This document shows, in pieces, positions 1-39,873 of a stretch of 64,000 bases of DNA. The stretch spans positions 62,001-126,000 of the forward strand of contig JAUCBJ010008109.1 in assembly GCA_032718475.1 (NCBI GenBank), read 5' to 3'. Both the position numbers and the translations under genes were made by a program. This DNA comes from Nemertoderma westbladi. Lineage: Eukaryota > Animalia > Xenacoelomorpha. Numbering within the stretch: the first letter of the stretch is position 1; the number at the start of each line of letters is the position of its first letter. Below the pieces are notes generated by a model. The model did not search any database. It was not told the DNA's origin and worked only from the letters and a program-made list of their open reading frames with translations.

Positions 1-3000
1 CTCACAGTTACAATGGATGTAAAACAAAGGGATGGACTCACAGTTACAATGGATGTAAAACAAAGGGATGGACTCACAGTTACAATAGATTGCATGTAAA
101 ACAAAGGGATGGACTCACAGTTACAATGGATGTAAAACAAAGGGATGGACTCACAGTTACAATGGATGTAAAACAAAGGGATGGACTCACAGTTACAATA
201 GATGTAAAACAAAGGGATGGACTCACAGTTACAATGGATGTAAAACAAAGGGATAGACTCACAGTTACAATGGATGTTAAACAAAGGGATGGACTCACAG
301 TTACAATGGATGTAAAACAAAGGGATGGACTCACAGTTACAATGGATGTTAAACAAAGGGATGGACTCACAGTTACAATAGATTGCATGTAAAACAAAGG
401 GATGGACTCACAGTTACAATGGATGTAAAACAAAGGGATGGATAGACTCACAGTTACAATGGATGTTAAACAAAGGGATGGACTCACAGTTACAATGGAT
501 GTAAAATAAAGGGATGGACTCACAGTTACAATAGATTGCATGTAAAACAAAGGGATGGACTCACAGTTACAATGGATGTAAAACAAAGGGATGGACTCAC
601 AGTTACAATGGATGTAAAACAAAGGGATGGATAGACTCACAGTTATAATAGATGTTAAACAAAGGGATGGACTCACAGTTACAATGGATGTTAAACAAAG
701 GGATGGACTCACAGTTACAATGGATGTAAAACAAAGGGATAGACTCACAGTTACAATGGATGTTAAACAAAGGGATGGACTCACAGTTACAATGGATGTT
801 AAACAAAGGGATGGACTCACAGTTACAATGGATGTTAAACAAAGGGATGGACTCACAGTTACAATGGATGTTAAACAAAGGGATGGACTCACAGTTACAA
901 TGGATGTTAAACAAAGGGATGGACTCACAGTTACAATGGATGTAAAACAAAGGGATAGACTCACAGTTACAATGGATGTTAAACAAAGGGATGGACTCAC
1001 AGTTACAATGGATGTTAAACAAAGGGATGGACTCACAGTTACAATGGATGTTAAACAAAGGGATAGACTCACAGTTACAATGGATGTTAAACAAAGGGAT
1101 GGACTCACAGTTACAATGGATGTAAAACAAAGGGATAGACTCACAGTTACAATGGATGTTAAACAAAGGGATGGACTCACAGTTACAATGGATGTTAAAC
1201 AAAGGGATGGACTCACAGTTACAATGGATGTAAAACAAAGGGATAGACTCACAGTTACAATGGATGTTAAACAAAGGGATGGACTCACAGTTACAATGGA
1301 TGTTAAACAAAGGGATGGACTCACAGTTACAATGGATGTTAAACAAAGGGATGGACTCACAGTTACAATGGATGTTAAACAAAGGGATGGACTCACAGTT
1401 ACAATGGATGTTAAACAAAGGGATGCACTCACAGTTACAATGGATGTAAAACAAAGGGATGGACTCACAGTTACAATGGATGTAAAACAAAGGGATGGAC
1501 TCACAGTTACAATGGATGTAAAACAAAGGGATGGAATCACAGTTACAATGGATGTAAAACAAAGGGATGGACTCACAGTTACAATGGATGTAAAACAAAG
1601 GGATGGACTCACAGTTACAATGGATGTAAAACAAAGGGATGGAATCACAGTTACAATGGATGTAAAACAAAGGGATGGACTCACAGTTACAATGGATGTA
1701 AAACAAAGGGATGGACTCACAGTTACAATGGATGTAAAACAAAGGGATAGACTCACAGTTACAATAGATTGCATGTAAAACAAAGGGATGGACTCACAGT
1801 TACAATGGATGTAAAACAAAGGGATAGACTCACAGTTACAATAGATTGCATGTAAAACAAAGGGATGGACTCACAGTTACAATGGATGTAAAACAAAGGG
1901 ATGGACTCACAGTTACAATGGATGTAAAACAAAGGGATGGAATCACAGTTACAATGGATGTAAAACAAAGGGATGGACTCACAGTTACAATGGATGTAAA
2001 ACAAAGGGATGGACTCACAGTTACAATGGATGTAAAACAAAGGGATGGAATCACAGTTACAATGGATGTAAAACAAAGGGATGGACTCACAGTTACAATG
2101 GATGTAAAATAAAGGGATGGACTCACAGTTACAATGGATGTAAAACAAAGGGATGGACTCACAGTTACAATGGATGTAAAACAAAGGGATGGACTCACAG
2201 TTACAATGGATGTAAAACAAAGGGATGGAATCACAGTTACAATGGATGTAAAACAAAGGGATGGACTCACAGTTACAATGGATGTAAAACAAAGGGATGG
2301 ACTCACAGTTATAATGGATGTTAAACAAAGGGATGGACTCACAGTTACAATGGATGTAAAACAAAGGGATGGACTCACAGTTACAATGGATGTAAAACAA
2401 AGGGATGGAATCACAGTTACAATGGATGTAAAACAAAGGGATGGACTCACAGTTACAATGGATGTAAAATAAAGGGATGGACTCACAGTTACAATAGATT
2501 GCATGTAAAACAAAGGGATGGACTCACAGTTACAATGGATGTAAAACAAAGGGATGGACTCACAGTTACAATGGATGTAAAACAAAGGGATGGAATCACA
2601 GTTACAATGGATGTAAAACAAAGGGATGGACTCACAGTTACAATGGATGTAAAACAAAGGGATGGACTCACAGTTACAATGGATGTAAAACAAAGGGATG
2701 GAATCACAGTTACAATGGATGTAAAACAAAGGGATGGACTCACAGTTACAATGGATGTAAAACAAAGGGATGGACTCACAGTTACAATGGATGTAAAACA
2801 AAGGGATGGACTCACAGTTACAATGGATGTAAAACAAAGGGATGGACTCACAGTTACAATGGATGTAAAATAAAGGGATGGACTCACAGTTACAATAGAT
2901 TGCATGTAAAACAAAGGGATGGACTCACAGTTACAATGGATGTAAAATAAAGGGATGGACTCACAGTTACAATGGATGTAAAACAAAGGGATGGATGGAC

Positions 3001-6000
3001 TCACAGTTATAATAGATTGCATGTAAAACAAAGGGATGGACTCACAGTTACAATGGATGTAAAACAAAGGGATGGACTCACAGTTACAATGGATGTAAAA
3101 CAAAGGGATGGACTCACAGTTACAATGGATGTAAAATAAAGGGATGGACTCACAGTTACAATGGATGTAAAATAAAGGGATGGACTCACAGTTACAATGG
3201 ATGTAAAACAAAGGGATGGACTCACAGTTACAATAGATTGCATGTAAAACAAAGGGATGGACTCACAGTTACAATGGATGTTAAACAAAGGGATGGACTC
3301 ACAGTTACAATGGATGTTAAACAAAGGGATGGACTCACAGTTATAATGGATGTAAAACAAAGGGATGGACTCACAGTTACAATGGATGTTAAACAAAGGG
3401 ATGGACTCACAGTTACAATGGATGTAAAATAAAGGGATGGACTCACAGTTACAATGGATGTAAAATAAAGGGATGGACTCACAGTTACAATGGATGTAAA
3501 ACAAAGGGATGGATAGACTCACAGTTACAATGGATGTAAAACAAAGGGATGGACTCACAGTTACAATGGATGTTAAACAAAGGGATGGACTCACAGTTAC
3601 AATGGATGTAAAACAAAGGGATGGACTCACAGTTACAATGGATGTAAAACAAAGGGATGGACTCACAGTTACAATAGATTGCATGTAAAACAAAGGGATG
3701 GACTCACAGTTACAATGGATGTAAAATAAAGGGATGGACTCACAGTTACAATGGATGTAAAACAAAGGGATGGACTCACAGTTACAATGGATGTTAAACA
3801 AAGGGATGGACTCACAGTTACAATGGATGTTAAACAAAGGGATGGACTCACAGTTACAATGGATGTAAAACAAAGGGATGGACTCACAGTTACAATGGAT
3901 GTAAAATAAAGGGATGGACTCACAGTTACAATGGATGTAAAACAAAGGGATGGACTCACAGTTACAATGGATGTAAAACAAAGGGATGGACTCACAGTTA
4001 CAATGGATGTAAAACAAAGGGATGGACTCACAGTTACAATGGATGTTAAACAAAGGGATGGACTCACAGTTACAATGGATGTTAAACAAAGGGATGGACT
4101 CACAGTTACAATGGATGTAAAACAAAGGGATGGACTCACAGTTACAATGGATGTTAAACAAAGGGATGGACTCACAGTTACAATGGATGTAAAACAAAGG
4201 GATGGACTCACAGTTACAATGGATGTAAGTATAAAGGGATGGACTCACAGTTACAATGGATGTTAAACAAAGGGATGGTCTCACAGTTACAATGGATGTA
4301 AAACAAAGGGATGGACTCACAGTTACAATGGATGTAAAATAAAGGGATGGACTCACAGTTACAATGGATGTAAAATAAAGGGATGGACTCACAGTTACAA
4401 TGGATGTAAAACAAAGGGATGGATAGACTCACAGTTACAATGGAGTGGATGTTAAACAAAGGGATGGACTCACAGTTACAATGGATGTTAAACAAAGGGA
4501 TGGACTCACAGTTACAATAGATTGCATGTAAAACAAAGGGATGGACTCACAGTTACAATGGATGTAAAACAAAGGGATGGACTCACAGTTACAATAGATT
4601 GCATGTAAAACAAAGGGATGGACTCACAGTTACAATGGATGTTAAACAAAGGGATGGACTCACAGTTACAATGGATGTAAAACAAAGGGATGGACTCACA
4701 GTTACAATGGATTGCATGTAAAACAAAGGGATGGACTCACAGTTACAATGGATGTTAAACAAAGGGATGGACTCACAGTTACAATGGATGTAAAACAAAG
4801 GGATGGACTCACAGTTACAATGGATGTTAAACAAAGGGATGGACTCACAGTTACAATGGATGTTAAACAAAGGGATGGACTCACAGTTACAATGGATGTT
4901 AAACAAAGGGATGGACTCACAGTTACAATGGATGTAAAACAAAGGGATGGACTCACAGTTACAATGGATGTTAAACAAAGGGATGGACTCACAGTTACAA
5001 TGGATGTAAAACAAAGGGATGGACTCACAGTTACAATGGATGTAAAATAAAGGGATGGACTCACAGTTACAATGGATGTTAAACAAAGGGATGGACTCAC
5101 AGTTACAATGGATGTAAAACAAAGGGATGGACTCACAGTTACAATGGATGTAAAATAAAGGGATGGACTCACAGTTACAATGGATTGCATGTAAAACAAA
5201 GGGATGGACTCACAGTTACAATAGATTGCATGTAAAACAAAGGGATGGACTCACAGTTACAATGGATGTTAAACAAAGGGATGGACTCACAGTTACAATG
5301 GATGTTAAACAAAGGGATGGACTCACAGTTATAATGGATGTAAAACAAAGGGATGGACTCACAGTTACAATGGATGTTAAACAAAGGGATAGACTCACAG
5401 TTACAATGGATTGCATGTAAAACAAAGGGATAGACTCACAGTTACAATGGATGTAAAACAAAGGGATGGACTCACAGTTACAATGGATGTAAAATAAAGG
5501 GATGGACTCACAGTTACAATGGATGTAAAATAAAGGGATGGACTCACAGTTACAATGGATGTAAAACAAAGGGATGGACTCACAGTTACAATGGATGTAA
5601 AACAAAGGGATGGACTCACAGTTACAATAGATTGCATGTAAAACAAAGGGATGGACTCACAGTTACAATGGATGTTAAACAAAGGGATGGACTCACAGTT
5701 ACAATGGATGTAAAATAAAGGGATGGACTCACAGTTACAATGGATGTAAAACAAAGGGATGGACTCACAGTTACAATAGATTGCATGTAAAACAAAGGGA
5801 TGGACTCACAGTTACAATGGATGTTAAACAAAGGGATGGACTCACAGTTACAATGGATGTAAAATAAAGGGATGGACTCACAGTTACAATGGATGTAAAA
5901 CAAAGGGATGGACTCACAGTTACAATAGATTGCATGTAAAACAAAGGGATGGACTCACAGTTACAATGGATGTTAAACAAAGGGATGGACTCACAGTTAC

Positions 6001-9000
6001 AATAGATTGCATGTAAAACAAAGGGATGGACTCACAGTTACAATGGATGTTAAACAAAGGGATGGACTCACAGTTACAATGGATGTAAAATAAAGGGATG
6101 GACTCACAGTTACAATGGATGTAAAACAAAGGGATGGACTCACAGTTACAATAGATTGCATGTAAAACAAAGGGATGGACTCACAGTTACAATGGATGTT
6201 AAACAAAGGGATGGACTCACAGTTACAATGGATGTAAAACAAAGGGATGGACTCACAGTTACAATGGATGTAAAATAAAGGGATGGACTCACAGTTACAA
6301 TGGATGTAAAATAAAGGGATGGACTCACAGTTACAATGGATGTAAAATAAAGGGATGGACTCACAGTTACAATGGATGTAAAATAAAGGGATGGACTCAC
6401 AGTTACAATGGATGTAAAACAAAGGGATGGACTCACAGTTACAATGGATGTAAAATAAAGGGATGGACTCACAGTTACAATGGATGTAAAATAAAGGGAT
6501 GGACTCACAGTTACAATGGATGTAAAACAAAGGGATGGACTCACAGTTACAATAGATTGCATGTAAAACAAAGGGATGGACTCACAGTTACAATGGATGT
6601 AAAACAAAGGGATGGACTCACAGTTACAATGGAGTGGATGTTAAACAAAGGGATGGACTCACAGTTACAATGGATGTAAAACAAAGGGATGGACTCACAG
6701 TTACAATAGATTGCATGTAAAACAAAGGGATGGACTCACAGTTACAATGGATGTAAAACAAAGGGATGGACTCACAGTTACAATGGATGTAAAATAAAGG
6801 GATGGACTCACAGTTACAATGGATGTAAAACAAAGGGATGGACTCACAGTTACAATAGATTGCATGTAAAACAAAGGGATGGACTCACAGTTACAATAGA
6901 TGTAAAACAAAGGGATGGATAGACTCACAGTTACAATGGATGTAAAACAAAGGGATGGACTCACAGTTACAATGGATGTAAAACAAAGGGATGGACTCAC
7001 AGTTACAATGGATGTTAAACAAAGGGATGGACTCACAGTTACAATAGATTGCATGTAAAACAAAGGGATGGACTCACAGTTACAATGGATGTTAAACAAA
7101 GGGATGGACTCACAGTTACAATAGATTGCATGTAAAATAAAGGGATGGACTCACAGTTACAATGGATGTAAAACAAAGGGATGGACTCACAGTTACAATA
7201 GATTGCATGTAAAACAAAGGGATGGACTCACAGTTACAATAGATGTAAAACAAAGGGATGGACTCACAGTTACAATGGATGTTAAACAAAGGGATGGACT
7301 CACAGTTACAATAGATTGCATGTAAAATAAAGGGATGGACTCACAGTTACAATGGATGTAAAACAAAGGGATGGACTCACAGTTACAATAGATTGCATGT
7401 AAAACAAAGGGATGGACTCACAGTTACAATGGATTGCATGTAAAACAAAGGGATAGACTCACAGTTACAATAGATGTAAAACAAAGGGATGGATAGACTC
7501 ACAGTTACAATGGATGTAAAACAAAGGGATGGACTCACAGTTACAATGGATGTTAAACAAAGGGATGGACTCACAGTTACAATAGATTGCATGTAAAACA
7601 AAGGGATGGACTCACAGTTACAATGGATTGCATGTAAAACAAAGGGATAGACTCACAGTTACAATAGATGTAAAACAAAGGGATGGATAGACTCACAGTT
7701 ACAATGGATGTAAAACAAAGGGATGGACTCACAGTTACAATGGATGTTAAACAAAGGGATGGACTCACAGTTACAATAGATTGCATGTAAAACAAAGGGA
7801 TGGACTCACAGTTACAATGGATGTAAAACAAAGGGATGGACTCACAGTTACAATAGATTGCATGTAAAACAAAGGGATGGACTCACAGTTACAATAGATG
7901 TAAAACAAAGGGATGGACTCATAGTTACAATGGATGTTAAACAAAGGGATGGACTCACAGTTACAATAGATTGCATGTAAAATAAAGGGATGGACTCACA
8001 GTTACAATGGATGTAAAACAAAGGGATGGACTCACAGTTACAATAGATTGCATGTAAAACAAAGGGATGGACTCACAGTTACAATAGATGTAAAACAAAG
8101 GGATGGATAGACTCACAGTTACAATGGATGTAAAACAAAGGGATGGACTCACAGTTACAATGGATGTTAAACAAAGGGATGGACTCACAGTTACAATAGA
8201 TTGCATGTAAAACAAAGGGATGGACTCACAGTTACAATGGATGTTAAACAAAGGGATGGACTCACAGTTACAATAGATTGCATGTAAAATAAAGGGATGG
8301 ACTCACAGTTACAATGGATGTTAAACAAAGGGATGGACTCACAGTTACAATAGATTGCATGTAAAATAAAGGGATGGACTCACAGTTACAATGGATGTAA
8401 AACAAAGGGATGGACTCACAGTTACAATAGATTGCATGTAAAACAAAGGGATGGACTCACAGTTACAATAGATGTAAAACAAAGGGATGGACTCACAGTT
8501 ACAATGGATGTTAAACAAAGGGATGGACTCACAGTTACAATAGATTGCATGTAAAATAAAGGGATGGACTCACAGTTACAATGGATGTAAAACAAAGGGA
8601 TGGACTCACAGTTACAATAGATTGCATGTAAAACAAAGGGATGGACTCACAGTTACAATAGATGTAAAACAAAGGGATGGATAGACTCACAGTTACAATG
8701 GATGTAAAACAAAGGGATGGACTCACAGTTACAATGGATGTTAAACAAAGGGATGGACTCACAGTTACAATAGATTGCATGTAAAACAAAGGGATGGACT
8801 CACAGTTACAATGGATGTAAAACAAAGGGATGGACTCACAGTTACAATGGATGTAAAACAAAGGGATGGACTCACAGTTACAATGGATGTAAAACAAAGG
8901 GATGGACTCACAGTTATAATAGATTGCATGTAAAACAAAGGGATGGACTCACAGTTACAATGGATGTAAAACAAAGGGATGGACTCACAGTTACAATGGA

Positions 9001-12000
9001 TGTAAAACAAAGGGATGGACTCACAGTTATAATAGATTGCATGTAAAACAAAGGGATGGACTCACAGTTACAATAGATTGCATGTAAAACAAAGGGATGG
9101 ACTCACAGTTACAATGGATGTAAAACAAAGGGATGGACTCACAGTTATAATAGATTGCATGTAAAACAAAGGGATGGACTCACAGTTACAATGGATGTTA
9201 AACAAAGGGATGGACTCACAGTTACAATGGATGTAAAACAAAGGGATGGACTCACAGTTACAATGGATGTAAAACAAAGGGATGTACTCACAGTTATAAT
9301 AGATTGCATGTAAAACAAAGGGATGGACTCACAGTTATAATAGATTGCATGTAAAACAAAGGGATGGACTCACAGTTACAATGGATGTTAAACAAAGGGA
9401 TGGACTCACAGTTACAATGGATGTAAAACAAAGGGATGGACTCACAGTTACAATGGATGTAAAACAAAGGGATGGACTCACAGTTACAATGGATGTAAAA
9501 CAAAGGGATGGACTCACAGTTACAATGGATGTTAAACAAAGGGATGGACTCACAGTTACAATAGATTGCATGTAAAACAAAGGGATGGACTCACAGTTAC
9601 AATAGATTGCATGTAAAACAAAGGGATGGACTCACAGTTACAATGGATGTTAAACAAAGGGATGGACTCACAGTTACAATGGATGTTAAACAAAGGGATG
9701 GACTCATAGTTACAATGGATGTAAAACAAAGGGATGGACTCACAGTTACAATGGATGTAAAACAAAGGGATGGACTCACAGTTATAATAGATTGCATGTA
9801 AAACAAAGGGATGGACTCACAGTTACAATGGATGTAAAACAAAGGGATGGACTCACAGTTACAATGGATGTAAAACAAAGGGATGGACTCACAGTTATAA
9901 TAGATTGCATGTAAAACAAAGGGATGGACTCACAGTTACAATGGATGTAAAACAAAGGGATGGACTCACAGTTATAATAGATTGCATGTAAAACAAAGGG
10001 ATGGACTCACAGTTACAATGGATGTAAAACAAAGGGATGGACTCACAGTTACAATGGATGTAAAACAAAGGGATGGACTCACAGTTATAATAGATTGCAT
10101 GTAAAACAAAGGGATGGACTCACAGTTACAATGGATGTAAAACAAAGGGATGGACTCACAGTTACAATGGATGTAAAACAAAGGGATGGACTCACAGTTA
10201 CAATGGATGTAAAACAAAGGGATGGACTCACAGTTACAATGGATGTAAAACAAAGGGATGGACTCACAGTTACAATGGATGTTAAACAAAGGGATGGACT
10301 CACAGTTACAATAGATTGCATGTAAAACAAAGGGATGGACTCACAGTTACAATAGATTGCATGTAAAACAAAGGGATGGACTCACAGTTACAATGGATGT
10401 AAAACAAAGGGATGGACTCACAGTTACAATGGATGTAAAACAAAGGGATGGACTCACAGTTACAATGGATGTAAAACAAAGGGATGGACTCACAGTTACA
10501 ATGGATGTTAAACAAAGGGATGGACTCACAGTTACAATAGATTGCATGTAAAACAAAGGGATGGACTCACAGTTACAATAGATTGCATGTAAAACAAAGG
10601 GATGGACTCACAGTTACAATGGATGTAAAACAAAGGGATGGACTCACAGTTACAATGGATGTAAAACAAAGGGATGGACTCACAGTTACAATGGATGTAA
10701 AACAAAGGGATGGACTCATAGTTATAATGGATGTAAAACAAAGGGATGGACTCACAGTTATAATAGATTGCATGTAAAACAAAGGGATGGACTCACAGTT
10801 ACAATGGATGTTAAACAAAGGGATGGACTCACAGTTACAATGGATGTTAAACAAAGGGATGGACTCACAGTTACAATGGATGTTAAACAAAGGGATGGAC
10901 TCACAGTTACAATGGATGTTAAACAAAGGGATGGACTCACAGTTACAATGGATGTTAAACAAAGGGATGGACTCACAGTTACAATGGATGTAAAACAAAG
11001 GGATGGACTCACAGTTATAATAGATTGCATGTAAAACAAAGGGATGGACTCACAGTTACAATGGATGTTAAACAAAGGGATGGACTCACAGTTATAATAG
11101 ATTGCATGTAAAACAAAGGGATGGACTCACAGTTACAATGGATGTTAAACAAAGGGATGGACTCACAGTTACAATGGATGTTAAACAAAGGGATGGACTC
11201 ACAGTTACAATGGATGTAAAACAAAGGGATGGACTCACAGTTATAATAGATTGCATGTAAAACAAAGGGATGGACTCACAGTTACAATGGATGTAAAACA
11301 AAGGGATGGACTCACAGTTATAATAGATTGCATGTAAAACAAAGGGATGGACTCACAGTTACAATGGATGTTAAACAAAGGGATGGACTCACAGTTACAA
11401 TGGATGTAAAACAAAGGGATGGACTCACAGTTATAATAGATTGCATGTAAAACAAAGGGATGGACTCACAGTTACAATGGATGTTAAACAAAGGGATGGA
11501 CTCACAGTTACAATGGATGTTAAACAAAGGGATGGACTCACAGTTACAATGGATGTAAAACAAAGGGATGGACTCACAGTTATAATAGATTGCATGTAAA
11601 ACAAAGGGATGGACTCACAGTTACAATGGATGTTAAACAAAGGGATGGACTCACAGTTACAATGGATGTAAAACAAAGGGATGGACTCACAGTTACAATG
11701 GATGTAAAACAAAGGGATGGACTCATAGTTATAATGGATGTAAAACAAAGGGATGGACTCACAGTTATAATAGATTGCATGTAAAACAAAGGGATGGACT
11801 CACAGTTACAATGGATGTTAAACAAAGGGATGGACTCACAGTTACAATGGATGTTAAACAAAGGGATGGACTCACAGTTACAATGGATGTTAAACAAAGG
11901 GATGGACTCACAGTTACAATGGATGTTAAACAAAGGGATGGACTCACAGTTACAATGGATGTTAAACAAAGGGATGGACTCACAGTTACAATGGATGTAA

Positions 12001-18000: not shown

Positions 18001-21000
18001 CTCACAGTTACAATGGATGTAAAACAAAGGGATGGACTCACAGTTACAATGGATGTAAAACAAAGGGATGGACTCACAGTTACAATGGATGTTAAACAAA
18101 GGGATGGACTCACAGTTACAATGGATGTAAAACAAAGGGATGGACTCACAGTTACAATGGATGTTATACAAAGGGATGGACTCACAGTTACAATGGATGT
18201 AAAACAAAGGGATGGACTCACAGTTACAATGGATGTAAAACAAAGGGATGGACTCACAGTTACAATGGATGTAAAACAAAGGGATGGACTCACAGTTACA
18301 ATGGATGTAAAACAAAGGGATGGACTCACAGTTACAATGGATGTAAAACAAAGGGATGGACTCACAGTTACAATGGATGTAAAACAAAGGGATGGACTCA
18401 CAGTTACAATGGATGTAAAACAAAGGGATGGACTCACAGTTACAATGGATGTTAAACAAAGGGATGGACTCACAGTTACAATGGATGTAAAACAAAGGGA
18501 TGGACTCACAGTTACAATGGATGTTAAACAAAGGGATGGACTCACAGTTACAATGGATGTAAAACAAAGGGATGGACTCACAGTTACAATGGATGTAAAA
18601 CAAAGGGATGGACTCACAGTTACAATGGATGTAAAACAAAGGGATGGACTCACAGTTACAATGGATGTTAAACAAAGGGATGGACTCACAGTTACAATGG
18701 ATGTAAAACAAAGGGATGGACTCACAGTTACAATGGATGTAAAACAAAGGGATGGACTCACAGTTACAATGGATGTAAAACAAAGGGATGGACTCACAGT
18801 TACAATGGATGTTAAACAAAGGGATGGACTCACAGTTACAATGGATGTAAAACAAAGGGATGGACTCACAGTTACAATGGATGTAAAACAAAGGGATGGA
18901 CTCACAGTTACAATGGATGTAAAACAAAGGGATGGACTCACAGTTACAATGGATGTAAAACAAAGGGATGGACTCACAGTTACAATGGATGTAAAACAAA
19001 GGGATGGACTCACAGTTACAATGGATGTAAAACAAAGGGATGGACTCACAGTTACAATGGATGTAAAACAAAGGGATGGACTCACAGTTATAATGGAGTG
19101 GATGTTAAACAAAGGGATGGACTCACAGTTACAATGGATGTTAAACAAAGGGATGGACTCACAGTTACAATGGATGTAAAACAAAGGGATGGACTCACAG
19201 TTACAATGGATGTTAAACAAAGGGATGGACTCACAGTTACAATGGATGTTATACAAAGGGATGGACTCACAGTTACAATGGATGTAAAACAAAGGGATGG
19301 ACTCACAGTTACAATGGATGTTAAACAAAGGGATGGACTCACAGTTACAATGGATGTTATACAAAGGGATGGACTCACAGTTACAATGGATGTTATACAA
19401 AGGGATGGACTCACAGTTACAATGGATGTAAAACAAAGGGATGGACTCACAGTTACAATGGATGTTAAACAAAGGGATGGACTCACAGTTACAATGGATG
19501 TTATACAAAGGGATGGACTCACAGTTACAATGGATGTAAAACAAAGGGATGGACTCACAGTTACAATGGATGTTAAACAAAGGGATGGACTCACAGTTAC
19601 AATGGATGTTAAACAAAGGGATGGACTCACAGTTATAATGGAGTGGATGTTAAACAAAGGGATGGACTCACAGTTACAATGGATGTAAAACAAAGGGATG
19701 GACTCACAGTTACAATGGATGTTAAACAAATGGATGGACTCACAGTTACAATGGATGTAAAACAAAGGGATGGACTCACAGTTACAATGGATGTTAAACA
19801 AAGGGATGGACTCACAGTTACAATGGATGTAAAACAAAGGGATGGACTCACAGTTACAATGGATGTTAAACAAAGGGATGGACTCACAGTTACAATGGAT
19901 GTTATACAAAGGGATGGACTCACAGTTACAATGGATGTAAAACAAAGGGATGGACTCACAGTTACAATGGATGTTAAACAAAGGGATGGACTCACAGTTA
20001 CAATGGATGTTATACAAAGGGATGGACTCACAGTTACAATGGATGTTATACAAAGGGATGGACTCACAGTTACAATGGATGTAAAACAAAGGGATGGACT
20101 CACAGTTACAATGGATGTTAAACAAAGGGATGGACTCACAGTTACAATGGATGTTATACAAAGGGATGGACTCACAGTTACAATGGATGTAAAACAAAGG
20201 GATGGACTCACAGTTACAATGGATGTTAAACAAAGGGATGGACTCACAGTTACAATGGATGTTAAACAAAGGGATGGACTCACAGTTACAATGGATGTTA
20301 TACAAAGGGATGGACTCACAGTTACAATGGATGTAAAACAAAGGGATGGACTCACAGTTACAATGGATGTTAAACAAAGGGATGGACTCACAGTTACAAT
20401 GGATGTTAAACAAAGGGATGGACTCACAGTTACAATGGAGTGGATGTAAAACAAAGGGATAGACTCATAGTTACAATGGATGTTATACAAAGGGATGGAC
20501 TCACAGTTACAATGGATGTTAAACAAAGGGATGGACTCACAGTTACAATGGATGTAAAACAAAGGGATGGACTCACAGTTACAATGGATGTTAAACAAAG
20601 GGATGGACTCACAGTTATAATGGATGTAAAACAAAGGGATGGACTCACAGTTACAATGGATGTAAAACAAAGGGATGGACTCACAGTTACAATGGATGTA
20701 AAACAAAGGGATGGACTCACAGTTACAATGGATGTTAAACAAAGGGATGGACTCACAGTTACAATGGATGTTAAACAAAGGGATGGACTCACAGTTACAA
20801 TGGATGTAAAACAAAGGGATAGACTCACAGTTTCAATGGATGTTAAACAAAGGGATGGATAGACTCATAGTTACAATGGATGTAAAACAAAGGGATGGAC
20901 TCATAGTTACAATGGATGTAAAACAAAGGGATGGATAGACTCACAGTTACAATGGATGTAAAACAAAGGGATGGACTCACAGTTACAATGGATGTAAAAC

Positions 21001-27000: not shown

Positions 27001-30000
27001 ACAATGGATGTAAAACAAAGGGATGGACTCACAGTTACAATGGATGTTAAACAAAGGGATGGACTCACAGTTACAATGGATGTTAAACAAAGGGATGGAC
27101 TCACAGTTACAATGGATGTAAAACAAAGGGATGGATAGACTCATAGTTACAATGGATGTTAAACAAAGGGATGGACTCACAGTTACAATGGATGTAAAAC
27201 AAAGGGATGGATAGACTCATAGTTACAATGGATGTTAAACAAAGGGATGGACTCACAGTTACAATGGATGTAAAACAAAGGGATGGACTCACAGTTACAA
27301 TGGATGTTAAACAAAGGGATGGACTCACAGTTACAATGGATGTTAAACAAAGGGATGGACTCACAGTTATAATGGATGTTAAACAAAGGGATGGATAGAC
27401 TCACAGTTACAGTGGATGTTAAACAAAGGGATGGACTCACAGTTACAATGGATGTTAAACAAAGGGATGGACTCACAGTTACAATGGATGTTAAACAAAG
27501 GGATGGATAGACTCATAGTTACAATGGATGTAAAACAAAGGGATGGATAGACTCACAGTTACAATGGAGTGGATGTTAAACAAAGGGATGGACTCACAGT
27601 TACAATGGATGTTAAACAAAGGGATGGACTCACAGTTACAATGGATGTTAAACAAAGGGATGGACTCACAGTTACAATGGATGTTAAACAAAGGGATGGA
27701 CTCACAGTTACAATGGATGTTAAACAAAGGGATGGATAGACTCACAGTTACAATGGATGTTAAACAAAGGGATGGATAGACTCATAGTTACAATGGATGT
27801 AAAACAAAGGGATGGATAGACTCACAGTTACAATGGAGTGGATGTTAAACAAAGGGATGGACTCACAGTTACAATGGATGTTAAACAAAGGGATGGACTC
27901 ACAGTTACAATGGATGTTAAACAAAGGGATGGATAGACTCACAGTTACAATGGATGTTAAACAAAGGGATGGATAGACTCATAGTTACAATGGATGTAAA
28001 ACAAAGGGATGGATAGACTCACAGTTACAATGGAGTGGATGTTAAACAAAGGGATGGACTCACAGTTACAATGGATGTTAAACAAAGGGATGGATAGACT
28101 CACAGTTACAATGGATGTTAAACAAAGGGATGGATAGACTCACAGTTACAATGGATGTTAAACAAAGGGATGGATAGACTCATAGTTACAATGGATGTAA
28201 AACAAAGGGATAGACTCACAGTTACAATGGATGTTAAACAAAGGGATAGACTCACAGTTACAATGGATGTAAAACAAATGGATAGACTCATAGTTACAAT
28301 GGATGTAAAACAAAGGGATGGACTCACAGTTACAATGGAGTGGATGTTAAACAAAGGGATGGATAGACTCACAGTTACAATGGATGTTAAACAAAGGGAT
28401 GGACTCACAGTTACAATGGATGTTAAACAAAGGGATGGACTCACAGTTACAATGGATGTAAAACAAAGGGATGGACTCACAGTTACAATGGATGTTAAAC
28501 AAAGGGATGGACTCACAGTTACAATGGATGTAAAACAAAGGGATGGATAGACTCACATTTACAATGGATGTTAAACAAAGGGATGGACTCACAGTTACAA
28601 TGGATGTAAAACAAAGGGATGGATAGACTCACAGTTACAATGGATGTTAAACAAAGGGATGGACTCACAGTTACAATGGATGTTAAACAAAGGGATGGAC
28701 TCACAGTTACAATGGATGTAAAACAAAGGGATGGATAGACTCACAGTTACAATGGATGTTAAACAAAGGGATGGATAGACTCACAGTTACAATGGATGTT
28801 AAACAAAGGGATGGACACATAGTTACAATGGATGTAAAACAAAGGGATGGATAGACTCACAGTTACAATGGATGTTAAACAAAGGGATGGACTCACAGTT
28901 ACAATGGATGTTAAACAAAGGGATGGACTCACAGTTACAATGGATGTAAAACAAAGGGATGGACTCACAGTTACAATGGATGTAAAACAAAGGGATGGAC
29001 TAATAGTTACAATGGATGTAAAACAAAGGGATGGATAGACTCACAGTTACAATGGATGTTAAACAAAGGGATGGATAGACTCACAGTTACAATGGATGTT
29101 AAACAAAGGGATGGACTCACAGTTACAATGGATGTTAAACAAAGGGATGGACACACAGTTACAATGGATGTAAAACAAAGGGATGGATAGACTCATAGTT
29201 ACAATGGATGTAAAACAAAGGGATGGACTCACAGTTACAATGGATGTAAAACAAAGGGATGGACTCACAGTTACAATGGAGTGGATGTTAAACAAAGGGA
29301 TAGACTCACAGTTACAATGGAGTGGATGTTAAACAAAGGGATGGACTCACAGTTACAATGGATGTAAAACAAAGGGATAGACTCATAGTTACAATGGATG
29401 TAAAACAAAGGGATGGACTCACAGTTACAATGGATGTAAAACAAAGGGATGGACTCATAGTTACAATGGATGTAAAACAAAGGGATGGATAGACTCACAG
29501 TTACAATGGATGTTAAACAAAGGGATGGATAGACTCATAGTTACAATGGATGTTAAACAAAGGGATGGACTCACAGTTACAATGGATGTTAAACAAAGGG
29601 ATGGACTCACAGTTACAATGGAGTGGATGTTAAACAAAGGGATAGACTCACAGTTACAATGGATGTTAAACAAAGGGATGGACTCACAGTTACAATGGAT
29701 GTAAAACAAAGGGATGGACTCATAGTTACAATGGATGTAAAACAAAGGGATGGATAGACTCACAGTTACAATGGATGTTAAACAAAGGGATGGATAGACT
29801 CATAGTTACAATGGATGTTAAACAAAGGGATGGACTCACAGTTACAATGGATGTTAAACAAAGGGATGGACTCACAGTTACAATGGAGTGGATGTTAAAC
29901 AAAGGGATGGACTCACAGTTACAATGGATGTAAAACAAAGGGATGGACTCACAGTTACAATGGATGTTAAACAAAGGGATGGACTCACAGTTACAATGGA

Positions 30001-33000
30001 TGTAAAACAAAGGGATGGACTCACAGTTACAATGGAGTGGATGTTAAACAAAGGGATGGACTCACAGTTACAATGGATGTAAAACAAAGGGATGGACTCA
30101 CAGTTACAATGGATGTAAAACAAAGGGATGGACTCACAGTTACAATGGATGTAAAACAAAGGGATGGACTCACAGTTACAATGGATGTAAAACAAAGGGA
30201 TGGACTCACAGTTACAATGGATGTTAAACAAAGGGATGGACTCACAGTTACAATGGATGTAAAACAAAGGGATGGACTCACAGTTACAATGGAGTGGATG
30301 TTAAACAAAGGGATGGACTCACAGTTACAATGGATGTAAAACAAAGGGATGGACTCACAGTTACAATGGATGTAAAACAAAGGGATGGACTCACAGTTAC
30401 AATGGAGTGGATGTTAAACAAAGGGATGGACTCACAGTTACAATGGATGTAAAACAAAGGGATGGACTCACAGTTACACTGGATGTTAAACAAAGGGATG
30501 GACTCACAGTTACAATGGAGTGGATGTTAAACAAAGGGATAGACTCACAGTTACAATGGATGTTAAACAAAGGGATGGACTCACAGTTACAATGGATGTT
30601 AAACAAAGGGATGGACTCACAGTTACAATGGATGTTAAACAAAGGGATGGACTCACAGTTACAATGGATGTAAAACAAAGGGATGGACTCACAGTTACAA
30701 TGGATGTAAAACAAAGGGATGGACTCACAGTTACAATGGATGTTAAACAAAGGGATGGACTCACAGTTACAATGGATGTAAAACAAAGGGATGGACTCAC
30801 AGTTACAATGGATGTAAAACAAAGGGATGGACTCACAGTTACAATGGATGTTAAACAAAGGGATGGACTCACAGTTACAATGGATGTTAAACAAAGGGAT
30901 GGACTCACAGTTACAATGGATGTAAAACAAAGGGATGGACTCACAGTTACAATGGATGTAAAACAAAGGGATGGACTCACAGTTACAATGGATGTTAAAC
31001 AAAGGGATGGACTCACAGTTACAATGGATGTAAAACAAAGGGATGGACTCACAGTTACAATGGATGTTAAACAAAGGGATGGACTCACAGTTACAATGGA
31101 TGTTAAACAAAGGGATGGACTCACAGTTACAATGGATGTTAAACAAAGGGATGGACTCACAGTTACAATGGATGTAAAACAAAGGGATGGACTCACAGTT
31201 ACAATGGATGTTAAACAAAGGGATGGACTCACAGTTACAATGGATGTAAAACAAAGGGATGGACTCACAGTTACAATGGATGTAAAACAAAGGGATGGAC
31301 TCACAGTTACAATGGATGTTAAACAAAGGGATGGACTCACAGTTACAATGGAGTGGATGTTAAACAAAGGGATGGACTCACAGTTACAATGGATGTTAAA
31401 CAAAGGGATGGACTCACAGTTACAATGGAGTGGATGTTAAACAAAGGGATGGACTCACAGTTACAATGGATGTAAAACAAAGGGATGGACTCACAGTTAC
31501 AATGGATGTTAAACAAAGGGATGGACTCACAGTTACAATGGATGTAAAACAAAGGGATGGACTCACAGTTACAATGGATGTTAAACAAAGGGATGGACTC
31601 ATAGTTACAATGGATGTAAAACAAAGGGATGGATAGACTCACAGTTACAATGGATGTTAAACAAAGGGATGGACTCACAGTTACAATGGATGTTAAACAA
31701 AGGGATGGACTCATAGTTACAATGGATGTAAAACAAAGGGATGGACTCACAGTTACAATGGATGTAAAACAAAGGGATGGATAGACTCACAGTTACAATG
31801 GATGTTAAACAAAGGGATGGACTCACAGTTACAATGGATGTTAAACAAAGGGATGGACTCATAGTTACAATGGATGTAAAACAAAGGGATGGATAGACTC
31901 ACAGTTACAATGGATGTTAAACAAAGGGATGGACTCACAGTTACAATGGATGTTAAACAAAGGGATGGACTCACAGTTACAATGGATGTTAAACAAAGGG
32001 ATGGACTCACAGTTACAATGGATGTTAAACAAAGGGATGGATAGACTCACAGTTACAATGGATGTTAAACAAAGGGATGGACTCACAGTTACAATGGATG
32101 TTAAACAAAGGGATGGACTCATAGTTACAATGGATGTTAAACAAAGGGATGGACTCACAGTTACAATGGATGTTAAACAAAGGGATGGATAGACTCACAG
32201 TTACAATGGATGTTAAACAAAGGGATGGACTCACAGTTACAATGGATGTAAAACAAAGGGATGGACTCACAGTTACAATGGATGTAAAACAAAGGGATGG
32301 ATAGACTCACAGTTACAATGGATGTTAAACAAAGGGATGGACTCATAGTTACAATGGATGTTAAACAAAGGGATGGACTCACAGTTACAATGGATGTTAA
32401 ACAAAGGGATGGATAGACTCACAGTTACAATGGATGTTAAACAAAGGGATGGACTCATAGTTACAATGGATGTAAAACAAAGGGATGGACTCACAGTTAC
32501 AATGGATGTAAAACAAAGGGATGGATAGACTCACAGTTACAATGGATGTTAAACAAAGGGATGGACTCACAGTTACAATGGATGTTAAACAAAGGGATGG
32601 ACTCACAGTTACAATGGATGTAAAACAAAGGGATGGATAGACTCACAGTTACAATGGATGTTAAACAAAGGGATGGACTCACAGTTACAATGGATGTTAA
32701 ACAAAGGGATGGACTCATAGTTACAATGGATGTAAAACAAAGGGATGGATAGACTCACAGTTACAATGGATGTTAAACAAAGGGATGGACTCACAGTTAC
32801 AATGGATGTTAAACAAAGGGATGGACTCACAGTTACAATGGATGTTAAACAAAGGGATGGACTCACAGTTACAATGGATGTTAAACAAAGGGATGGACTC
32901 ATAGTTACAATGGATGTAAAACAAAGGGATGGATAGACTCACAGTTACAATGGATGTTAAACAAAGGGATGGACTCACAGTTACAATGGATGTTAAACAA

Positions 33001-36000
33001 AGGGATGGACTCACAGTTACAATGGATGTAAAACAAAGGGATGGATAGACTCATAGTTACAATGGATGTTAAACAAAGGGATGGACTCACAGTTACAATG
33101 GATGTTAAACAAAGGGATGGACTCACAGTTACAATGGATGTTAAACAAAGGGATGGATAGACTCATAGTTACAATGGATGTAAAACAAAGGGATGGATAG
33201 ACTCACAGTTACAATGGAGTGGATGTTAAACAAAGGGATGGACTCACAGTTACAATGGAGTGGATGTTAAACAAAGGGATGGATAGACTCACAGTTACAA
33301 TGGATGTTAAACAAAGGGATGGACTCACAGTTACAATGGATGTTAAACAAAGGGATGGACTCACAGTTACAATGGATGTAAAACAAAGGGATGGACTCAC
33401 AGTTACAATGGATGTTAAACAAAGGGATGGACTCACAGTTACAATGGATGTAAAACAAAGGGATGGACTCACAGTTACAATGGATGTTAAACAAAGGGAT
33501 GGACTCACAGTTACAATGGATGTAAAACAAAGGGATGGATAGACTCACAGTTACAATGGATGTTAAACAAAGGGATGGACTCACAGTTACAATGGATGTT
33601 AAACAAAGGGATGGACTCACAGTTACAATGGATGTAAAACAAAGGGATGGATAGACTCACAGTTACAATGGATGTTAAACAAAGGGATGGACTCACAGTT
33701 ACAATGGATGTTAAACAAAGGGATGGATAGACTCATAGTTACAATGGATGTAAAACAAAGGGATGGATAGACTCACAGTTACAATGGATGTTAAACAAAG
33801 GGATGGACTCACAGTTACAATGGATGTTAAACAAAGGGATGGACTCATAGTTACAATGGATGTAAAACAAAGGGATGGATGGACTCACAGTTACAATGGA
33901 TGTAAAACAAAGGGATGGACTCACAGTTACAATGGATGTTAAACAAAGGGATGGACTCACAGTTACAATGGATGTTAAACAAAGGGATGGACTCACAGTT
34001 ACAATGGATGTAAAACAAAGGGATGGACTCACAGTTACAATGGATGTTAAACAAAGGGATGGACTCATAGTTACAATGGATGTAAAACAAAGGGATGGAT
34101 AGACTCATAGTTACAATGGATGTTAAACAAAGGGATGGATGGACTCACAGTTACAATGGATGTTAAACAAAGGGATGGACTCACAGTTACAATGGATGTT
34201 AAACAAAGGGATGGATAGACTCATAGTTACAATGGATGTTAAACAAAGGGATGGACTCACAGTTACAATGGATGTAAAACAAAGGGATGGACTCATAGTT
34301 ACAATGGATGTTAAACAAAGGGATGGATAGACTCATAGTTACAATGGATGTTAAACAAAGGGATGGACTCACAGTTACAATGGATGTAAAACAAAGGGAT
34401 GGACTCACAGTTACAATGGATGTTAAACAAAGGGATGGACTCCCAGTTACAATGGATGTTAAACAAAGGGATGGACTCACAGTTACAATGGATGTTAAAC
34501 AAAGGGATGGATAGACTCATAGTTACAATGGATGTAAAACAAAGGGATGGATAGACTCACAGTTACAATGGATGTTAAACAAAGGGATGGACTCACAGTT
34601 ACATTGCATGTAAAACAAAGGGATGGATAGACTCACAGTTACAATGGATGTTAAACAAAGGGATAGACTCACAGTTACAATGGAGTGGATGTTAAACAAA
34701 GGGATGGACTCACAGTTACAATGGATGTTAAACAAAGGGATGGACTCATAGTTACAATGGATGTAAAACAAAGGGATGGATAGACTCACAGTTACAATGG
34801 ATGTTAAACAAAGGGATGGACTCACAGTTACAATGGATGTTAAACAAAGGGATGGATAGACTCATAGTTACAATGGATGTAAAACAAAGGGATGGATAGA
34901 CTCATAGTTACAATGGATGTAAAACAAAGGGATGGATAGACTCACAGTTACAATGGAGTGGATGTTAAACAAAGGGATGGACTCACAGTTACAATGGATG
35001 TTAAACAAAGGGATGGACTCATAGTTACAATGGATGTTAAACAAAGGGATGGACTCACAGTTACAATGGATGTTAAACAAAGGGATGGACTCACAGTTAC
35101 AATGGAGTGGATGTTAAACAAAGGGATGGACTCACAGTTACAATGGAGTGGATGTTAAACAAAGGGATGGACTCACAGTTACAATGGATGTAAAACAAAG
35201 GGATGGACTCACAGTTACAATGGATGTTAAACAAAGGGATGGACTCATAGTTACAATGGATGTAAAACAAAGGGATGGACTCACAGTTACAATGGATGTT
35301 AAACAAAGGGATGGACTCACAGTTACAATGGATGTAAAACAAAGGGATGGACTCACAGTTACAATGGATGTTAAACAAAGGGATGGACTCACAGTTACAA
35401 TGGATGTTAAACAAAGGGATGGACTCACAGTTACAATGGATGTAAAACAAAGGGATAGACTCACAGTTACAATGGATGTAAAACAAAGGGATGGACTCAC
35501 AGTTACAATGGATGTAAAACAAAGGGATGGACTCACAGTTACAATGGATGTAAAACAAAGGGATGGACTCACAGTTACAATGGATGTAAAACAAAGGGAT
35601 GGACTCACAGTTACAATGGATGTTAAACAAAGGGATGGATAGACTCATAGTTACAATGGATGTAAAACAAAGGGATGGACTCACAGTTACAATGGATGTT
35701 AAACAAAGGGATGGACTCACAGTTACAATGGATGTAAAACAAAGGGATGGACTCACAGTTACAATGGAGTGGATGTTAAACAAAGGGATGGACTCACAGT
35801 TACAATGGATGTTAAACAAAGGGATGGATAGACTCACAGTTACAATGGATGTTAAACAAAGGGATGGATAGACTCACAGTTACAATGGATGTTAAACAAA
35901 GGGATGGATAGACTCACAGTTACAATGGATGTAAAACAAAGGGATGGATAGACTCATAGTTACAATGGATGTAAAACAAAGGGATGGATAGACTCATAGT

Positions 36001-39000
36001 TACAATGGATGTTAAACAAAGGGATGGACAGACTCACAGTTACAATGGATGTTAAACAAAGGGATGGACTCACAGTTACAATGGATGTTAAACAAAGGGA
36101 TGGATAGACTCACAGTTACAATGGATGTAAAACAAAGGGATGGATAGACTCATAGTTACAATGGATGTAAAACAAAGGGATGGATAGACTCATAGTTACA
36201 ATGGATGTTAAACAAAGGGATGGACAGACTCACAGTTACAATGGATGTTAAACAAAGGGATGGACTCACAGTTACAATGGATGTTAAACAAAGGGATGGA
36301 CTCATAGTTACAATGGATGTTAAACAAAGGGATGGACTCACAGTTACAATGGATGTTAAACAAAGGGATGGACTCACAGTTACAATGGAGTGGATGTTAA
36401 ACAAAGGGATGGACTCACAGTTACAATGGATGTAAAACAAAGGGATGGACTCACAGTTACAATGGAGTGGATGTTAAACAAAGGGATGGACTCACAGTTA
36501 CAATGGATGTAAAACAAAGGGATGGACTCACAGTTACAATGGAGTGGATGTTAAACAAAGGGATGGACTCACAGTTACAATGGATGTAAAACAAAGGGAT
36601 GGATAGACTCACAGTTACAATGGATGTAAAACAAAGGGATGGACTCACAGTTACAATGGAGTGGATGTTAAACAAAGGGATGGACTCACAGTTACAATGG
36701 ATGTAAAACAAAGGGATGGATAGACTCACAGTTACAATGGAGTGGATGTTAAACAAAGGGATGGACTCACAGTTACAATGGATGTAAAACAAAGGGATGG
36801 ACTCACAGTTACAATTTATGTTAAACAAATGGATGGACTCACAGTTATAATGGATGTTAAACAAAGGGATGGACTCACAGTTACAATGGATGTAAAACAA
36901 AGGGATGGACTCACAGTTACAATTTATGTTAAACAAATGGATGGACTCACAGTTACAATGGATGTAAAACAAAGGGATGGACTCACAGTTACAATGGATG
37001 TAAAACAAAGGGATGGATAGACTCACAGTTACAATGGAGTGGATGTTAAACAAAGGGATGGACTCACAGTTACAATGGATGTAAAACAAAGGGATGGACT
37101 CACAGTTACAATTTATGTTAAACAAATGGATGGACTCACAGTTACAATGGATGTAAAACAAAGGGATGGACTCACAGTTACAATGGATGTAAAACAAAGG
37201 GATGGACTCACAGTTACAATTTATGTTAAACAAATGGATGGACTCACAGTTACAATGGATGTAAAACAAAGGGATGGACTCACAGTTACAATGGATGTAA
37301 AACAAAGGGATGGATAGACTCACAGTTACAATGGAGTGGATGTTAAACAAAGGGATGGACTCACAGTTACAATGGATGTTAAACAAAGGGATGGACTCAC
37401 AGTTACAATGGAGTGGATGTTAAACAAAGGGATGGACTCACAGTTACAATGGATGTAAAACAAAGGGATGGACTCACAGTTACAATGGATGTTAAACAAA
37501 GGGATGGACTCACAGTTACAATGGATGTAAAACAAAGGGATGGACTCACAGTTACAATGGATGTAAAACAAAGGGATGGATAGACTCATAGTTACAATGG
37601 ATGTTAAACAAAGGGATGGACTCACAGTTACAATGGATGTTAAACAAAGGGATGGACTCACAGTTACAATGGATGTTAAACAAAGGGATGGATAGACTCA
37701 TAGTTACAATGGATGTAAAACAAAGGGATGGACTCACAGTTACAATGGATGTAAAACAAAGGGATGGATAGACTCATAGTTACAATGGATGTTAAACAAA
37801 GGGATAGACTCATAGTTACAATGGATGTTAAACAAAGGGATGGACTCACAGTTACAATGGATGTTAAACAAAGGGATGGACTCACAGTTACAATGGATGT
37901 TAAACAAAGGGATGGATAGACTCATAGTTACAATGGATGTAAAACAAAGGGATGGACTCACAGTTACAATGGATGTTAAACAAAGGGATGGACTCACAGT
38001 TACAATGGAGTGGATGTTAAACAAAGGGATGGACTCACAGTTACAATGGATGTAAAACAAAGGGATGGATAGACTCATAGTTACAATGGATGTAAAACAA
38101 AGGGATGGATAGACTCATAGTTACAATGGATGTTAAACAAAGGGATGGACTCACAGTTACAATGGATGTTAAACAAAGGGATGGACTCATAGTTACAATG
38201 GATGTTAAACAAAGGGATGGACTCACAGTTACAATGGATGTTAAACAAAGGGATGGACTCACAGTTACAATGGAGTGGATGTTAAACAAAGGGATGGACT
38301 CACAGTTACAATGGATGTAAAACAAAGGGATGGATAGACTCATAGTTACAATGGATGTTAAACAAAGGGATGGACTCACAGTTACAATGGATGTAAAACA
38401 AAGGGATGGACTCATAGTTACAATGGATGTTAAACAAAGGGATGGACTCACAGTTACAATGGATGTAAAACAAAGGGATGGACTCATAGTTACAATGGAT
38501 GTTAAACAAAGGGATGGACTCACAGTTACAATGGATGTAAAACAAAGGGATGGATAGACTCACAGTTACAATGGAGTGGATGTTAAACAAAGGGATGGAC
38601 TCACAGTTACAATGGATGTAAAACAAAGGGATGGACTCACAGTTACAATTTATGTTAAACAAATGGATGGACTCACAGTTATAATGGATGTTAAACAAAG
38701 GGATGGACTCACAGTTACAATGGATGTAAAACAAAGGGATGGACTCACAGTTACAATTTATGTTAAACAAATGGATGGACTCACAGTTACAATGGATGTA
38801 AAACAAAGGGATGGACTCACAGTTACAATGGATGTAAAACAAAGGGATGGATAGACTCACAGTTACAATGGAGTGGATGTTAAACAAAGGGATGGACTCA
38901 CAGTTACAATGGATGTAAAACAAAGGGATGGACTCACAGTTACAATTTATGTTAAACAAATGGATGGACTCACAGTTACAATGGATGTTAAACAAAGGGA

Positions 39001-39873
39001 TGGACTCACAGTTACAATGGATGTTAAACAAAGGGATGGATAGACTCACAGTTACAATGGAGTGGATGTTAAACAAAGGGATGGACTCACAGTTACAATG
39101 GATGTAAAACAAAGGGATGGACTCACAGTTACAATGGATGTAAAACAAAGGGATGGACTCACAGTTACAATGGATGTAAAACAAAGGGATGGACTCACAG
39201 TTACAATGGATGTTAAACAAAGGGATGGACTCACAGTTACAATAGATTGCATGTTAAACAAAGGGATGGACTCACAGTTACAATGGATGTTAAACAAAGG
39301 GTGGATGGACTCACAGTTACAATGGATGTAAAACAAAGGGATAGACTCACAGTTACAATGGATGTTAAACAAAGGGATGGACTCACAGTTATAATGGATG
39401 TTAAACAAAGGGATGGACTCACAGTTACAATGGATGTAAAACAAAGGGATGGACTCACAGTTACAATGGATGTAAAACAAAGGGATGGACTCACAGTTAC
39501 AATGGATGTAAAACAAAGGGATGGACTCACAGTTACAATGGCATGTAAAACAAAGGGATGGATAGACTCACAGTTACAATGGATGTTAAACAAAGGGATG
39601 GACTCACAGTTACAATGGATGTTAAACAAAGGGATGGACTCACAGTTACAATGTTGCATGTTAAACAAAGGGATGGACTCACAGTTACAATGGATGTAAA
39701 ACAAAGGGATGGACTCACAGTTACAATGGATGTTAAACAAAGGGATGGACTCACAGTTACAATGGATGTAAAACAAAGGGATGGACTCACAGTTACAATG
39801 ATTGCATGTTAAACAAAGGGATGGACTCACAGTTACAATGGATGTTAAACAAAGGGATGGACTCACAGTTACA
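1..39873. repeat. 36-bp satellite array (~1,050-1,100 monomers, open at window start). Consensus + strand GGATGGACTCACAGTTACAATGGATGT(A/T)AAACAAAG, with 40-bp and 41-bp length variants
   Basis: Direct reading: uninterrupted head-to-tail monomers from base 1 to 39873. 40-bp variant carries GGATGGATAGAC; 41-bp variants carry ATAGATTGCATG or ATGGAGTGGATG. Copy number estimated from length divided by ~36.5 bp. Confidence 0.99.

What the first reader, a model, noticed from the sequence alone, without database searches (positions are those of the whole stretch)
1..39873. A 40-kb satellite made of ~1,000 tandem copies of the gene's own 5' splice site
Seen: on the minus (sense) strand exon 6 ends ...CCC TCG TGT AAC T|GTGAGTCCATCCCTTTGTTTAACATCCAT. 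The monomer is exactly the last 7 exonic nt (TGTAACT) plus the first 29 intronic nt, and the array stops precisely inside the exon at 39873. Most monomers therefore carry the same -7..+6 donor context as the authentic site, matching GTRAGT. The consensus monomer has no YAG acceptor (its only AG is inside GTGAGT) and no sense-strand AATAAA. Inference: the satellite arose from the exon/intron junction, and intron 6 is at least 39.8 kb of U1 snRNP-binding sites. This could act as a decoy or U1 sponge, a telescripting platform protecting a giant intron, or a source of length-variable donor choice; at minimum it is a natural test of how a donor is picked among ~1,000 near-identical ones.
Basis: partly seen in the sequence, partly recalled or inferred. 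Interest (0 to 1): 0.9.

Follow-up and report, generated by a model that had tools for sequence, protein, structure and literature searches.

The report
Giant splice-donor minisatellite, over 1,000 copies
A 36-base piece covering the end of an exon and its splice signal is copied more than 1,000 times (40 kb) into the next intron of a gene, yet the one transcript seen is spliced within the first copy; it is likely a harmless runaway repeat of a kind known from a few human genes, notable for its size.

Summary
The array is real: 1,071 monomers fill 1-39873, and 926 carry the exact -7..+6 context of the exon 6 donor of a thrombospondin-type-1-repeat gene. DNA contigs of two samples run from exon 6 into monomer 1, so it is no misjoin. 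A spliced contig joins exons 3-6 and leaves the window inside monomer 1 for new sequence: a downstream exon exists and the first copy serves as donor. One DNA contig leaves the repeat exactly at a monomer end, the mark of a 36-bp tandem duplication. Rough depth modelling fits one or two window-sized arrays, not a dispersed satellite. No sign of selection on the donors: 86 copies lost GT. The layout is known: human F7, IFI6, CBS, ABCA7 and amphioxus 'mirages'. This scan noted it before in other genomes (up to about 377 copies). New here is scale. Global sponge and telescripting roles are unsupported; a local U1-rich condensate, as at chicken LL2R, stays open.

The parts
1..39873 (-). Minisatellite array, at least 1,071 monomers of 36/40/41 nt; runs off the window start; all but its first 7 nt lie in intron 6
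39838..39873 (-). Monomer 1: exon 6 end plus intron start; holds the donor that is used; 250 of 1,071 monomers are identical to it
39861..39869 (-). Likely authentic donor, intron starting GTGAGT at 39866 (phase 1). A weak GT at 39862 would give the same mRNA and is not excluded
39825..39833 (-). Second donor copy (intron start 39830): the only other one whose use would keep the frame (+12 residues)
39793..39795 (-). First in-frame stop on read-through; any donor from the third on would include it
30479..30481 (-). Single monomer variant with a CAG acceptor-like end, 7 nt before the next donor copy
29000..29002 (-). Second single YAG variant, in a GT-dead monomer
39867..40040 (-). Exon 6, TSP1 domain 4
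   Evidence: Pfam PF00090; in spliced contig
41629..41808 (-). Exon 5, TSP1 domain 3
42049..42225 (-). Exon 4, TSP1 domain 2
45582..45734 (-). Exon 3, TSP1 domain 1
   Evidence: loose end of the spliced contig equals 45583-45612
45907..46239 (-). Predicted exon 2, cysteine-containing region without a family match
   Evidence: open frame and GT-AG ends; no credible relative
49938..50004 (-). Predicted coding part of exon 1; hydrophobic N-terminus, signal-peptide-like by eye
   Evidence: no signal-peptide predictor run

Best explanation
The array is a splice-donor minisatellite: a 36-bp stretch across the exon 6 / intron 6 boundary stands in more than 1,000 tandem copies, likely from one tandem duplication and neutral expansion, and the gene is still spliced within the first copy, likely because the most upstream donor is chosen first. 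Shown: array, junction in two samples, a spliced transcript leaving at monomer 1. Inferred: birth by duplication of exactly this unit; growth by slippage or unequal exchange; donor choice by exon definition or 5'-to-3' scanning as in human F7; tolerance because the monomer offers no acceptor and no poly(A) signal, so the inner donors have no exon to close, and because use of the third or a later donor would add a stop codon and likely trigger decay.
For: Junction: contigs of X1 (39846-40318) and X3 (39847-41700, 12 other letters, another sample and study) run 27-28 nt into monomer 1. Transcript: one 1,461-nt contig of X4 covers exons 4, 5, 6 with two GT-AG joints, continues into exon 3, and leaves the window at 39863 with 283 nt still to go. 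Birth: one X1 contig leaves the repeat at 39838, the last base of the unit, for 255 or more unique letters. Neutral turnover: variants sit in local domains, the longest exact repeat is 16 monomers, no higher-order period stands out; donor sites +1..+6 carry 0.016 substituted copies per site against 0.009 elsewhere, and 86 of 1,071 copies lost GT. One locus: depth corresponds to 0.7-2.1 window arrays. Precedent: F7 pseudo-sites are functional but only the most upstream is used (PMC1557585).
Against: One transcript contig from one run of unknown tissue; that run is labelled 'DNA?' and is judged RNA from exon-only cover. Contigs drop rare forms, so minor use of inner donors is unseen. The array length in that individual is unknown (one 66-nt repeat contig). 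The far-end contig appears in 1 of 3 runs laid and its link to this locus is inferred. The array seems similarly large in two individuals, which persistence by function would also give. In ABCA7 longer alleles do change splicing and expression (PMC5954066), so 'neutral' may be too strong.
Confidence: 0.72

Rival explanations
1. The nascent intron, with about 49 donor words per 2 kb and no acceptor or poly(A) signal, loads U1 snRNP along 40 kb and nucleates a local splicing-factor condensate that slows or tunes transcription of this gene, as proposed for chicken LL2R.
For: 974 donor words in 39.9 kb against more than 5 per 2 kb in LL2R, which does gather splicing factors (bioRxiv 10.64898/2026.03.19.712899). 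Array RNA is weakly structured over the first 251 nt (z +2.3). Intron 1 also holds 52 GTRAG words.
Against: No conservation of the donor positions. The donor lacks exonic pairing to U1 (5.5 of 11 on a crude count against 8-10 for three other donors of the gene). No direct test was possible.
Confidence: 0.12
2. Array length acts as a dial on gene output or isoforms: longer alleles raise use of the second donor (+12 residues) or unproductive splicing, as with the ABCA7 VNTR.
For: The second donor keeps the frame, later ones add a stop. ABCA7 shows one-unit retention and length-linked exon skipping.
Against: Only the monomer-1 form was seen in X4 (2 contigs laid). No allele-length data.
Confidence: 0.1
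3. A pre-existing dispersed or centromeric satellite landed at the exon end, or the assembly misjoined it.
For: Tandem arrays are common in this window (introns 1 and 3, upstream 3-kb units). No whole genome was available to search.
Against: Junction in two samples; only two unique-flank contigs in X1, both in register with the unit; depth fits 0.7-2.1 window arrays; irregular variant map unlike a collapsed or copied assembly.
Confidence: 0.04
4. A global U1 sponge, or a telescripting platform that protects a giant intron.
For: Sheer number of donor words.
Against: No AATAAA or ATTAAA in the array to mask, and the array itself is what makes the intron long. About 1,000 sites on a few nascent transcripts are small against a U1 pool of order 10^5-10^6 per cell (recalled figure for mammalian cells).
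Confidence: 0.02

Closest known systems
Human F7 intron 7 37-bp VNTR (PMC1557585; abstract, synopsis, introduction and passages read)
   Same: First monomer spans the exon-intron boundary (4 exonic + 33 intronic nt); identical donors follow; only the most upstream is used.
   Different: 5-9 copies against at least 1,071 here. The same paper lists IFI6 (6-16), CBS, LMNB2 and PDGF with 10-26 copies, two of which also use the next two donors.
Human ABCA7 intron 18 25-bp VNTR (PMC5954066; passages read)
   Same: Unit begins with the donor GT; kilobase-scale array; the next unit can serve as cryptic donor.
   Different: Longest allele in the passages read is 9,711 bp (about 390 units by my division); one-unit retention shifts the frame there but keeps it here; length effects are shown there, untested here.
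Amphioxus 'mirage' minisatellites (PMC3087553; passages read; the Adh3 paper itself was not held)
   Same: Tandem duplications of exon-intron boundaries in an invertebrate; reported not to disturb regular splicing.
   Different: 3-6 units of about 150 bp in the globin genes; far smaller arrays.
Chicken LL2R array (bioRxiv 10.64898/2026.03.19.712899; abstract, sections 22 and 29 read)
   Same: Single-locus transcribed tandem array with donor excess and few poly(A) signals.
   Different: Non-coding unit from a retrotransposon promoter, 360 copies of 446 bp, about tenfold lower donor density; condensate shown there, untested here; this array lies in a spliced coding gene and derives from its own donor.
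Satellite-filled gigantic introns of Drosophila Y genes (PMC11207136; search listing only)
   Same: Intron made long by tandem repeats.
   Different: Hundreds of kb to Mb; that their satellites are simple repeats not built from splice donors is recalled, not checked here.

Membership tests
Splice-donor-spanning minisatellite (F7 type / 'mirage') | First monomer spans an exon-intron boundary of a real gene | tested here: met
   Monomer 1 at 39873-39838 overlaps TSP1 exon 6; junction in two DNA samples; splice falls inside it
Splice-donor-spanning minisatellite (F7 type / 'mirage') | Donor sequence reiterated in tandem in the intron | tested here: met
   926 of 1,071 monomers carry the exact -7..+6 context
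Splice-donor-spanning minisatellite (F7 type / 'mirage') | Most upstream donor is the main one used | tested here: met
   One spliced contig from one run leaves at monomer 1; minor forms not visible
Splice-donor-spanning minisatellite (F7 type / 'mirage') | Copy number varies between alleles | tested here: inconclusive
   Depth ratios of two samples are alike within the error of the model; no allele lengths
Splice-donor-spanning minisatellite (F7 type / 'mirage') | Inner donors work when the first is lost | not testable with these tools
   Needs minigenes, as in PMC1557585
Dispersed or centromeric satellite DNA | Many loci or very high genome copy number | tested here: not met
   Rough: 760-2,220 copies per single-contig depth; two unique-flank contigs in X1; no genome to search
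Dispersed or centromeric satellite DNA | Regular higher-order repeat | tested here: not met
   Best lag match 0.26 against baseline 0.18, spread over many lags; longest exact repeat 16 monomers
LL2R-type architectural repeat RNA | Donor excess over acceptors and few poly(A) signals | tested here: met
   974 donor words, 2 YAG, 0 poly(A) hexamers
LL2R-type architectural repeat RNA | RNA retained at the locus and gathering splicing factors | not testable with these tools
   Needs RNA-FISH and immunostaining
LL2R-type architectural repeat RNA | Independent non-coding transcription unit | tested here: not met
   Array lies in an intron of a spliced coding gene
Intron gained by duplication of exonic sequence | Unit equals exon sequence on both sides of the new intron and supplies an acceptor | tested here: not met
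   Transcript beyond 39863 and the far flank are unlike the monomer; consensus monomer has no YAG

The most novel reading that the evidence does not exclude
A protein-coding gene has turned its own 5' splice site into a 40-kb polymer of about 970 U1 sites that builds a U1-rich condensate on the nascent transcript and sets the gene's output by array length, while the first donor still wins.
Probability: 0.12. Interest if true: 0.75.

Novelty: new member of a known kind. Interest (0 to 1): 0.42.

Why it matters
It pushes a known oddity to an extreme: correct splicing past about 970 identical downstream donors over at least 40 kb, roughly four times the length of the longest such allele in the papers read here (ABCA7, 9.7 kb). 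It shows that upstream-first donor choice holds at that load, and offers a natural system to test whether donor density alone gathers U1 into condensates or slows transcription. It does not show a new mechanism.

Tried and rejected
No whole genome is held, so exon 7 and other copies of the monomer could not be located. No RNA holder was listed by label; X4 turned out to hold a spliced contig. X4 holds one repeat contig at depth 27.6 beside the mRNA contig at 35.3, although the commonest 31-mer stands 676 times in the array; contigs cannot give RNA levels, so this is not used as evidence. Monomer core in metagenome contigs: 0 matches. Exon 6 there: 1 distant TSP1 locus at 43%, no orthologue. 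Homologue searches: exon 2, 0 of 12 candidates; 2 hits among representatives, a repetitive protein and a LIM protein, judged spurious; exon 6, 1 unnamed TSP1 protein at 37%. The Atlas gave no answer. Rfam 38000-64000: 0. My first exon 2 and 3 coordinates were off by 2 nt and were corrected; U1 counts for those two donors are void. Read-through as a terminal exon (stop at 39795) rejected: the transcript goes on elsewhere. Selection against acceptors not shown: 2 of 26 substitution types make a YAG, about 2.4 expected; both are single copies, low power. GT-dead copies are mostly proximal (78 of 535 against 8 of 536), but the first 37 monomers are intact and copies are not independent.

Full report
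Observation. Tandem Repeats Finder gives one array from 1 to 39873, period 36, 1072.3 copies, 92% matches. Decomposition on the minus strand yields 1,071 whole monomers of 67 types; 926 begin with the exact -7..+6 context of the exon 6 donor and 250 are identical to monomer 1. The sense strand has 974 GTGAGT words, 2 YAG and no AATAAA or ATTAAA. A shuffled monomer contains GTRAGT in 0.7% of trials. Lack of YAG (43% of shuffles) and of poly(A) signals (99%) is ordinary. The array runs off the window start, so 39.9 kb is a minimum.

The gene. Six predicted minus-strand exons from 50004 to 39867 give 361 codons without a stop, every intron GT-AG and phase 1. Exons 3-6 each encode one TSP_1 domain above the Pfam cut-off. 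Exon 2 has no credible relative. Exon 1 looks like a signal peptide by eye. The product is likely a secreted thrombospondin-type-1-repeat protein of an animal (inference); the organism was not determined.

Is the junction real? Four runs of the same coded organism were laid. X1 and X3, from different samples and studies, each have a contig running from exon 6 27-28 nt into monomer 1, about as far as a 31-letter-word contig can go into a repeat. X3 differs from the window at 12 letters over 1.8 kb, so it is not the assembled haplotype. X2 has no cover there. The variant map is irregular, with local domains and no exact repeat longer than 16 monomers, as in a real minisatellite.

Which donor is used? 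X4 is labelled 'DNA?' but covers exons and not introns. One 1,461-nt contig joins exon 4 to 5 and 5 to 6 at GT-AG introns, and its upstream loose end equals the end of exon 3. The 642 nt before exon 4 leave room for exons 1-3 plus about 90 nt. Downstream it matches the window to 39863 and then goes on for 283 nt of other sequence. The 30 letters shown continue the exon 6 frame without a stop while the other two frames each hit one (read by eye). So a downstream coding exon exists and the splice falls in monomer 1. The match runs 4 nt (GTGA) past the proposed donor. Either exon 7 begins with these letters, or the intron starts at a weak GT at 39862; both give the same mRNA. I put about 85% on 39866, from the perfect +1..+6 match and the phase-1 pattern (inference). 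Use of the second donor would add 12 residues in frame; any later one would include a stop at 39795.

Origin and number of loci. On a 77-nt reference around monomer 1 (X1, X3, X4), X1 showed two contigs with long unique flanks: the exon 6 one, and one that leaves the repeat at 39838, the last base of the unit, for 255 or more letters. Start and end in register are what a tandem duplication of this exact 36-bp stretch leaves. X3 showed no such far end, and the link of that contig to this locus is inferred. A simulation of word depth from the window's own array puts the summed depth in X1 and X3 at 0.7-2.1 window arrays, 760-2,220 copies per single-contig depth. The tool warns that such depth is no copy number, so this is an order of magnitude only; it speaks against a large dispersed satellite and suggests a big array in both individuals.

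Is it under selection as a donor array? Donor positions +1..+6 carry 0.016 substituted copies per site, other sites 0.009; 86 of 1,071 monomers lost the GT. YAG-making changes arose about as often as expected (2 of 26 types) and stayed single. Copies are not independent, so these are weak tests, but none points to function.

Mechanism. Shown: array, junction, splice in monomer 1. Inferred: duplication of the boundary, expansion by slippage or unequal exchange, and upstream-first donor choice. In human F7, identical downstream donors work when the first is mutated yet do not compete with it (PMC1557585; abstract, synopsis, introduction and passages). Here the inner donors also have no acceptor upstream to define an exon, and no poly(A) signal ends the transcript early. 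That explains why this unit could grow without breaking the gene.

Comparison. The layout is a described class: F7, IFI6, CBS, LMNB2, PDGF (listed in PMC1557585), ABCA7 with alleles up to 9,711 bp in the passages read (PMC5954066), and amphioxus 'mirages' (PMC3087553 passages). Five literature searches showed no such array of this size in their listings; most subscription journals are outside the library and no supplements were read. Notes of this scan, unchecked, report the same layout in other genomes, up to about 377 copies; I had reached the reading before seeing them. Donor density here is about 49 per 2 kb against more than 5 there, so a local condensate is a fair, untested possibility. 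Telescripting has nothing to mask within the array, and a global sponge is unlikely on numbers (recalled U1 abundance).

Verdict. Observation confirmed, interpretation partly supported. New member of a known kind, extreme in size. Interest 0.42.

Noticed in passing
window 47924-49940: G-rich (sense strand) 58-bp array and related repeats starting just behind the exon 1 donor; intron 1 holds 52 GTRAG words on the sense strand against 1 on the other. A second donor-rich intron in the same gene; whether it derives from the donor was not shown.
   Followed up: partly
window 44713-45559: 20-bp array of about 43 copies starting about 20 nt behind the exon 3 donor, not including it.
   Followed up: no
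window 46366-47123: 54-bp array of about 14 copies ending about 125 nt before the exon 2 acceptor.
   Followed up: no
window 51200-63300: Four tandem units of about 2.98 kb, 80-98% alike, with a 48-bp palindrome and a GC-rich hairpin seen by eye; possibly a tandem non-autonomous transposon.
   Followed up: no
window 42574-43560: Broken reverse-transcriptase-like (LINE) fragment in intron 3 (weak DUF6451 match below cut-off), with a 50-nt, 98% inverted repeat at 42574-42623 and 43381-43430.
   Followed up: no
window 1-39873: Three of the commonest substitutions (monomer positions 2, 8, 24; 48, 85 and 45 copies) are all TGT to TAT on the sense strand; may be a mutational signature or three chance events that spread.
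   Followed up: no
window 30479-30481: One T-to-G change turns a monomer end into a CAG behind a pyrimidine tract, 7 nt before the next donor: every monomer is one change from a 7-nt micro-exon, which would shift the frame.
   Followed up: partly
window 45907-46239: Exon 2 encodes a 110-residue cysteine-containing region with no credible family or relative.
   Followed up: partly
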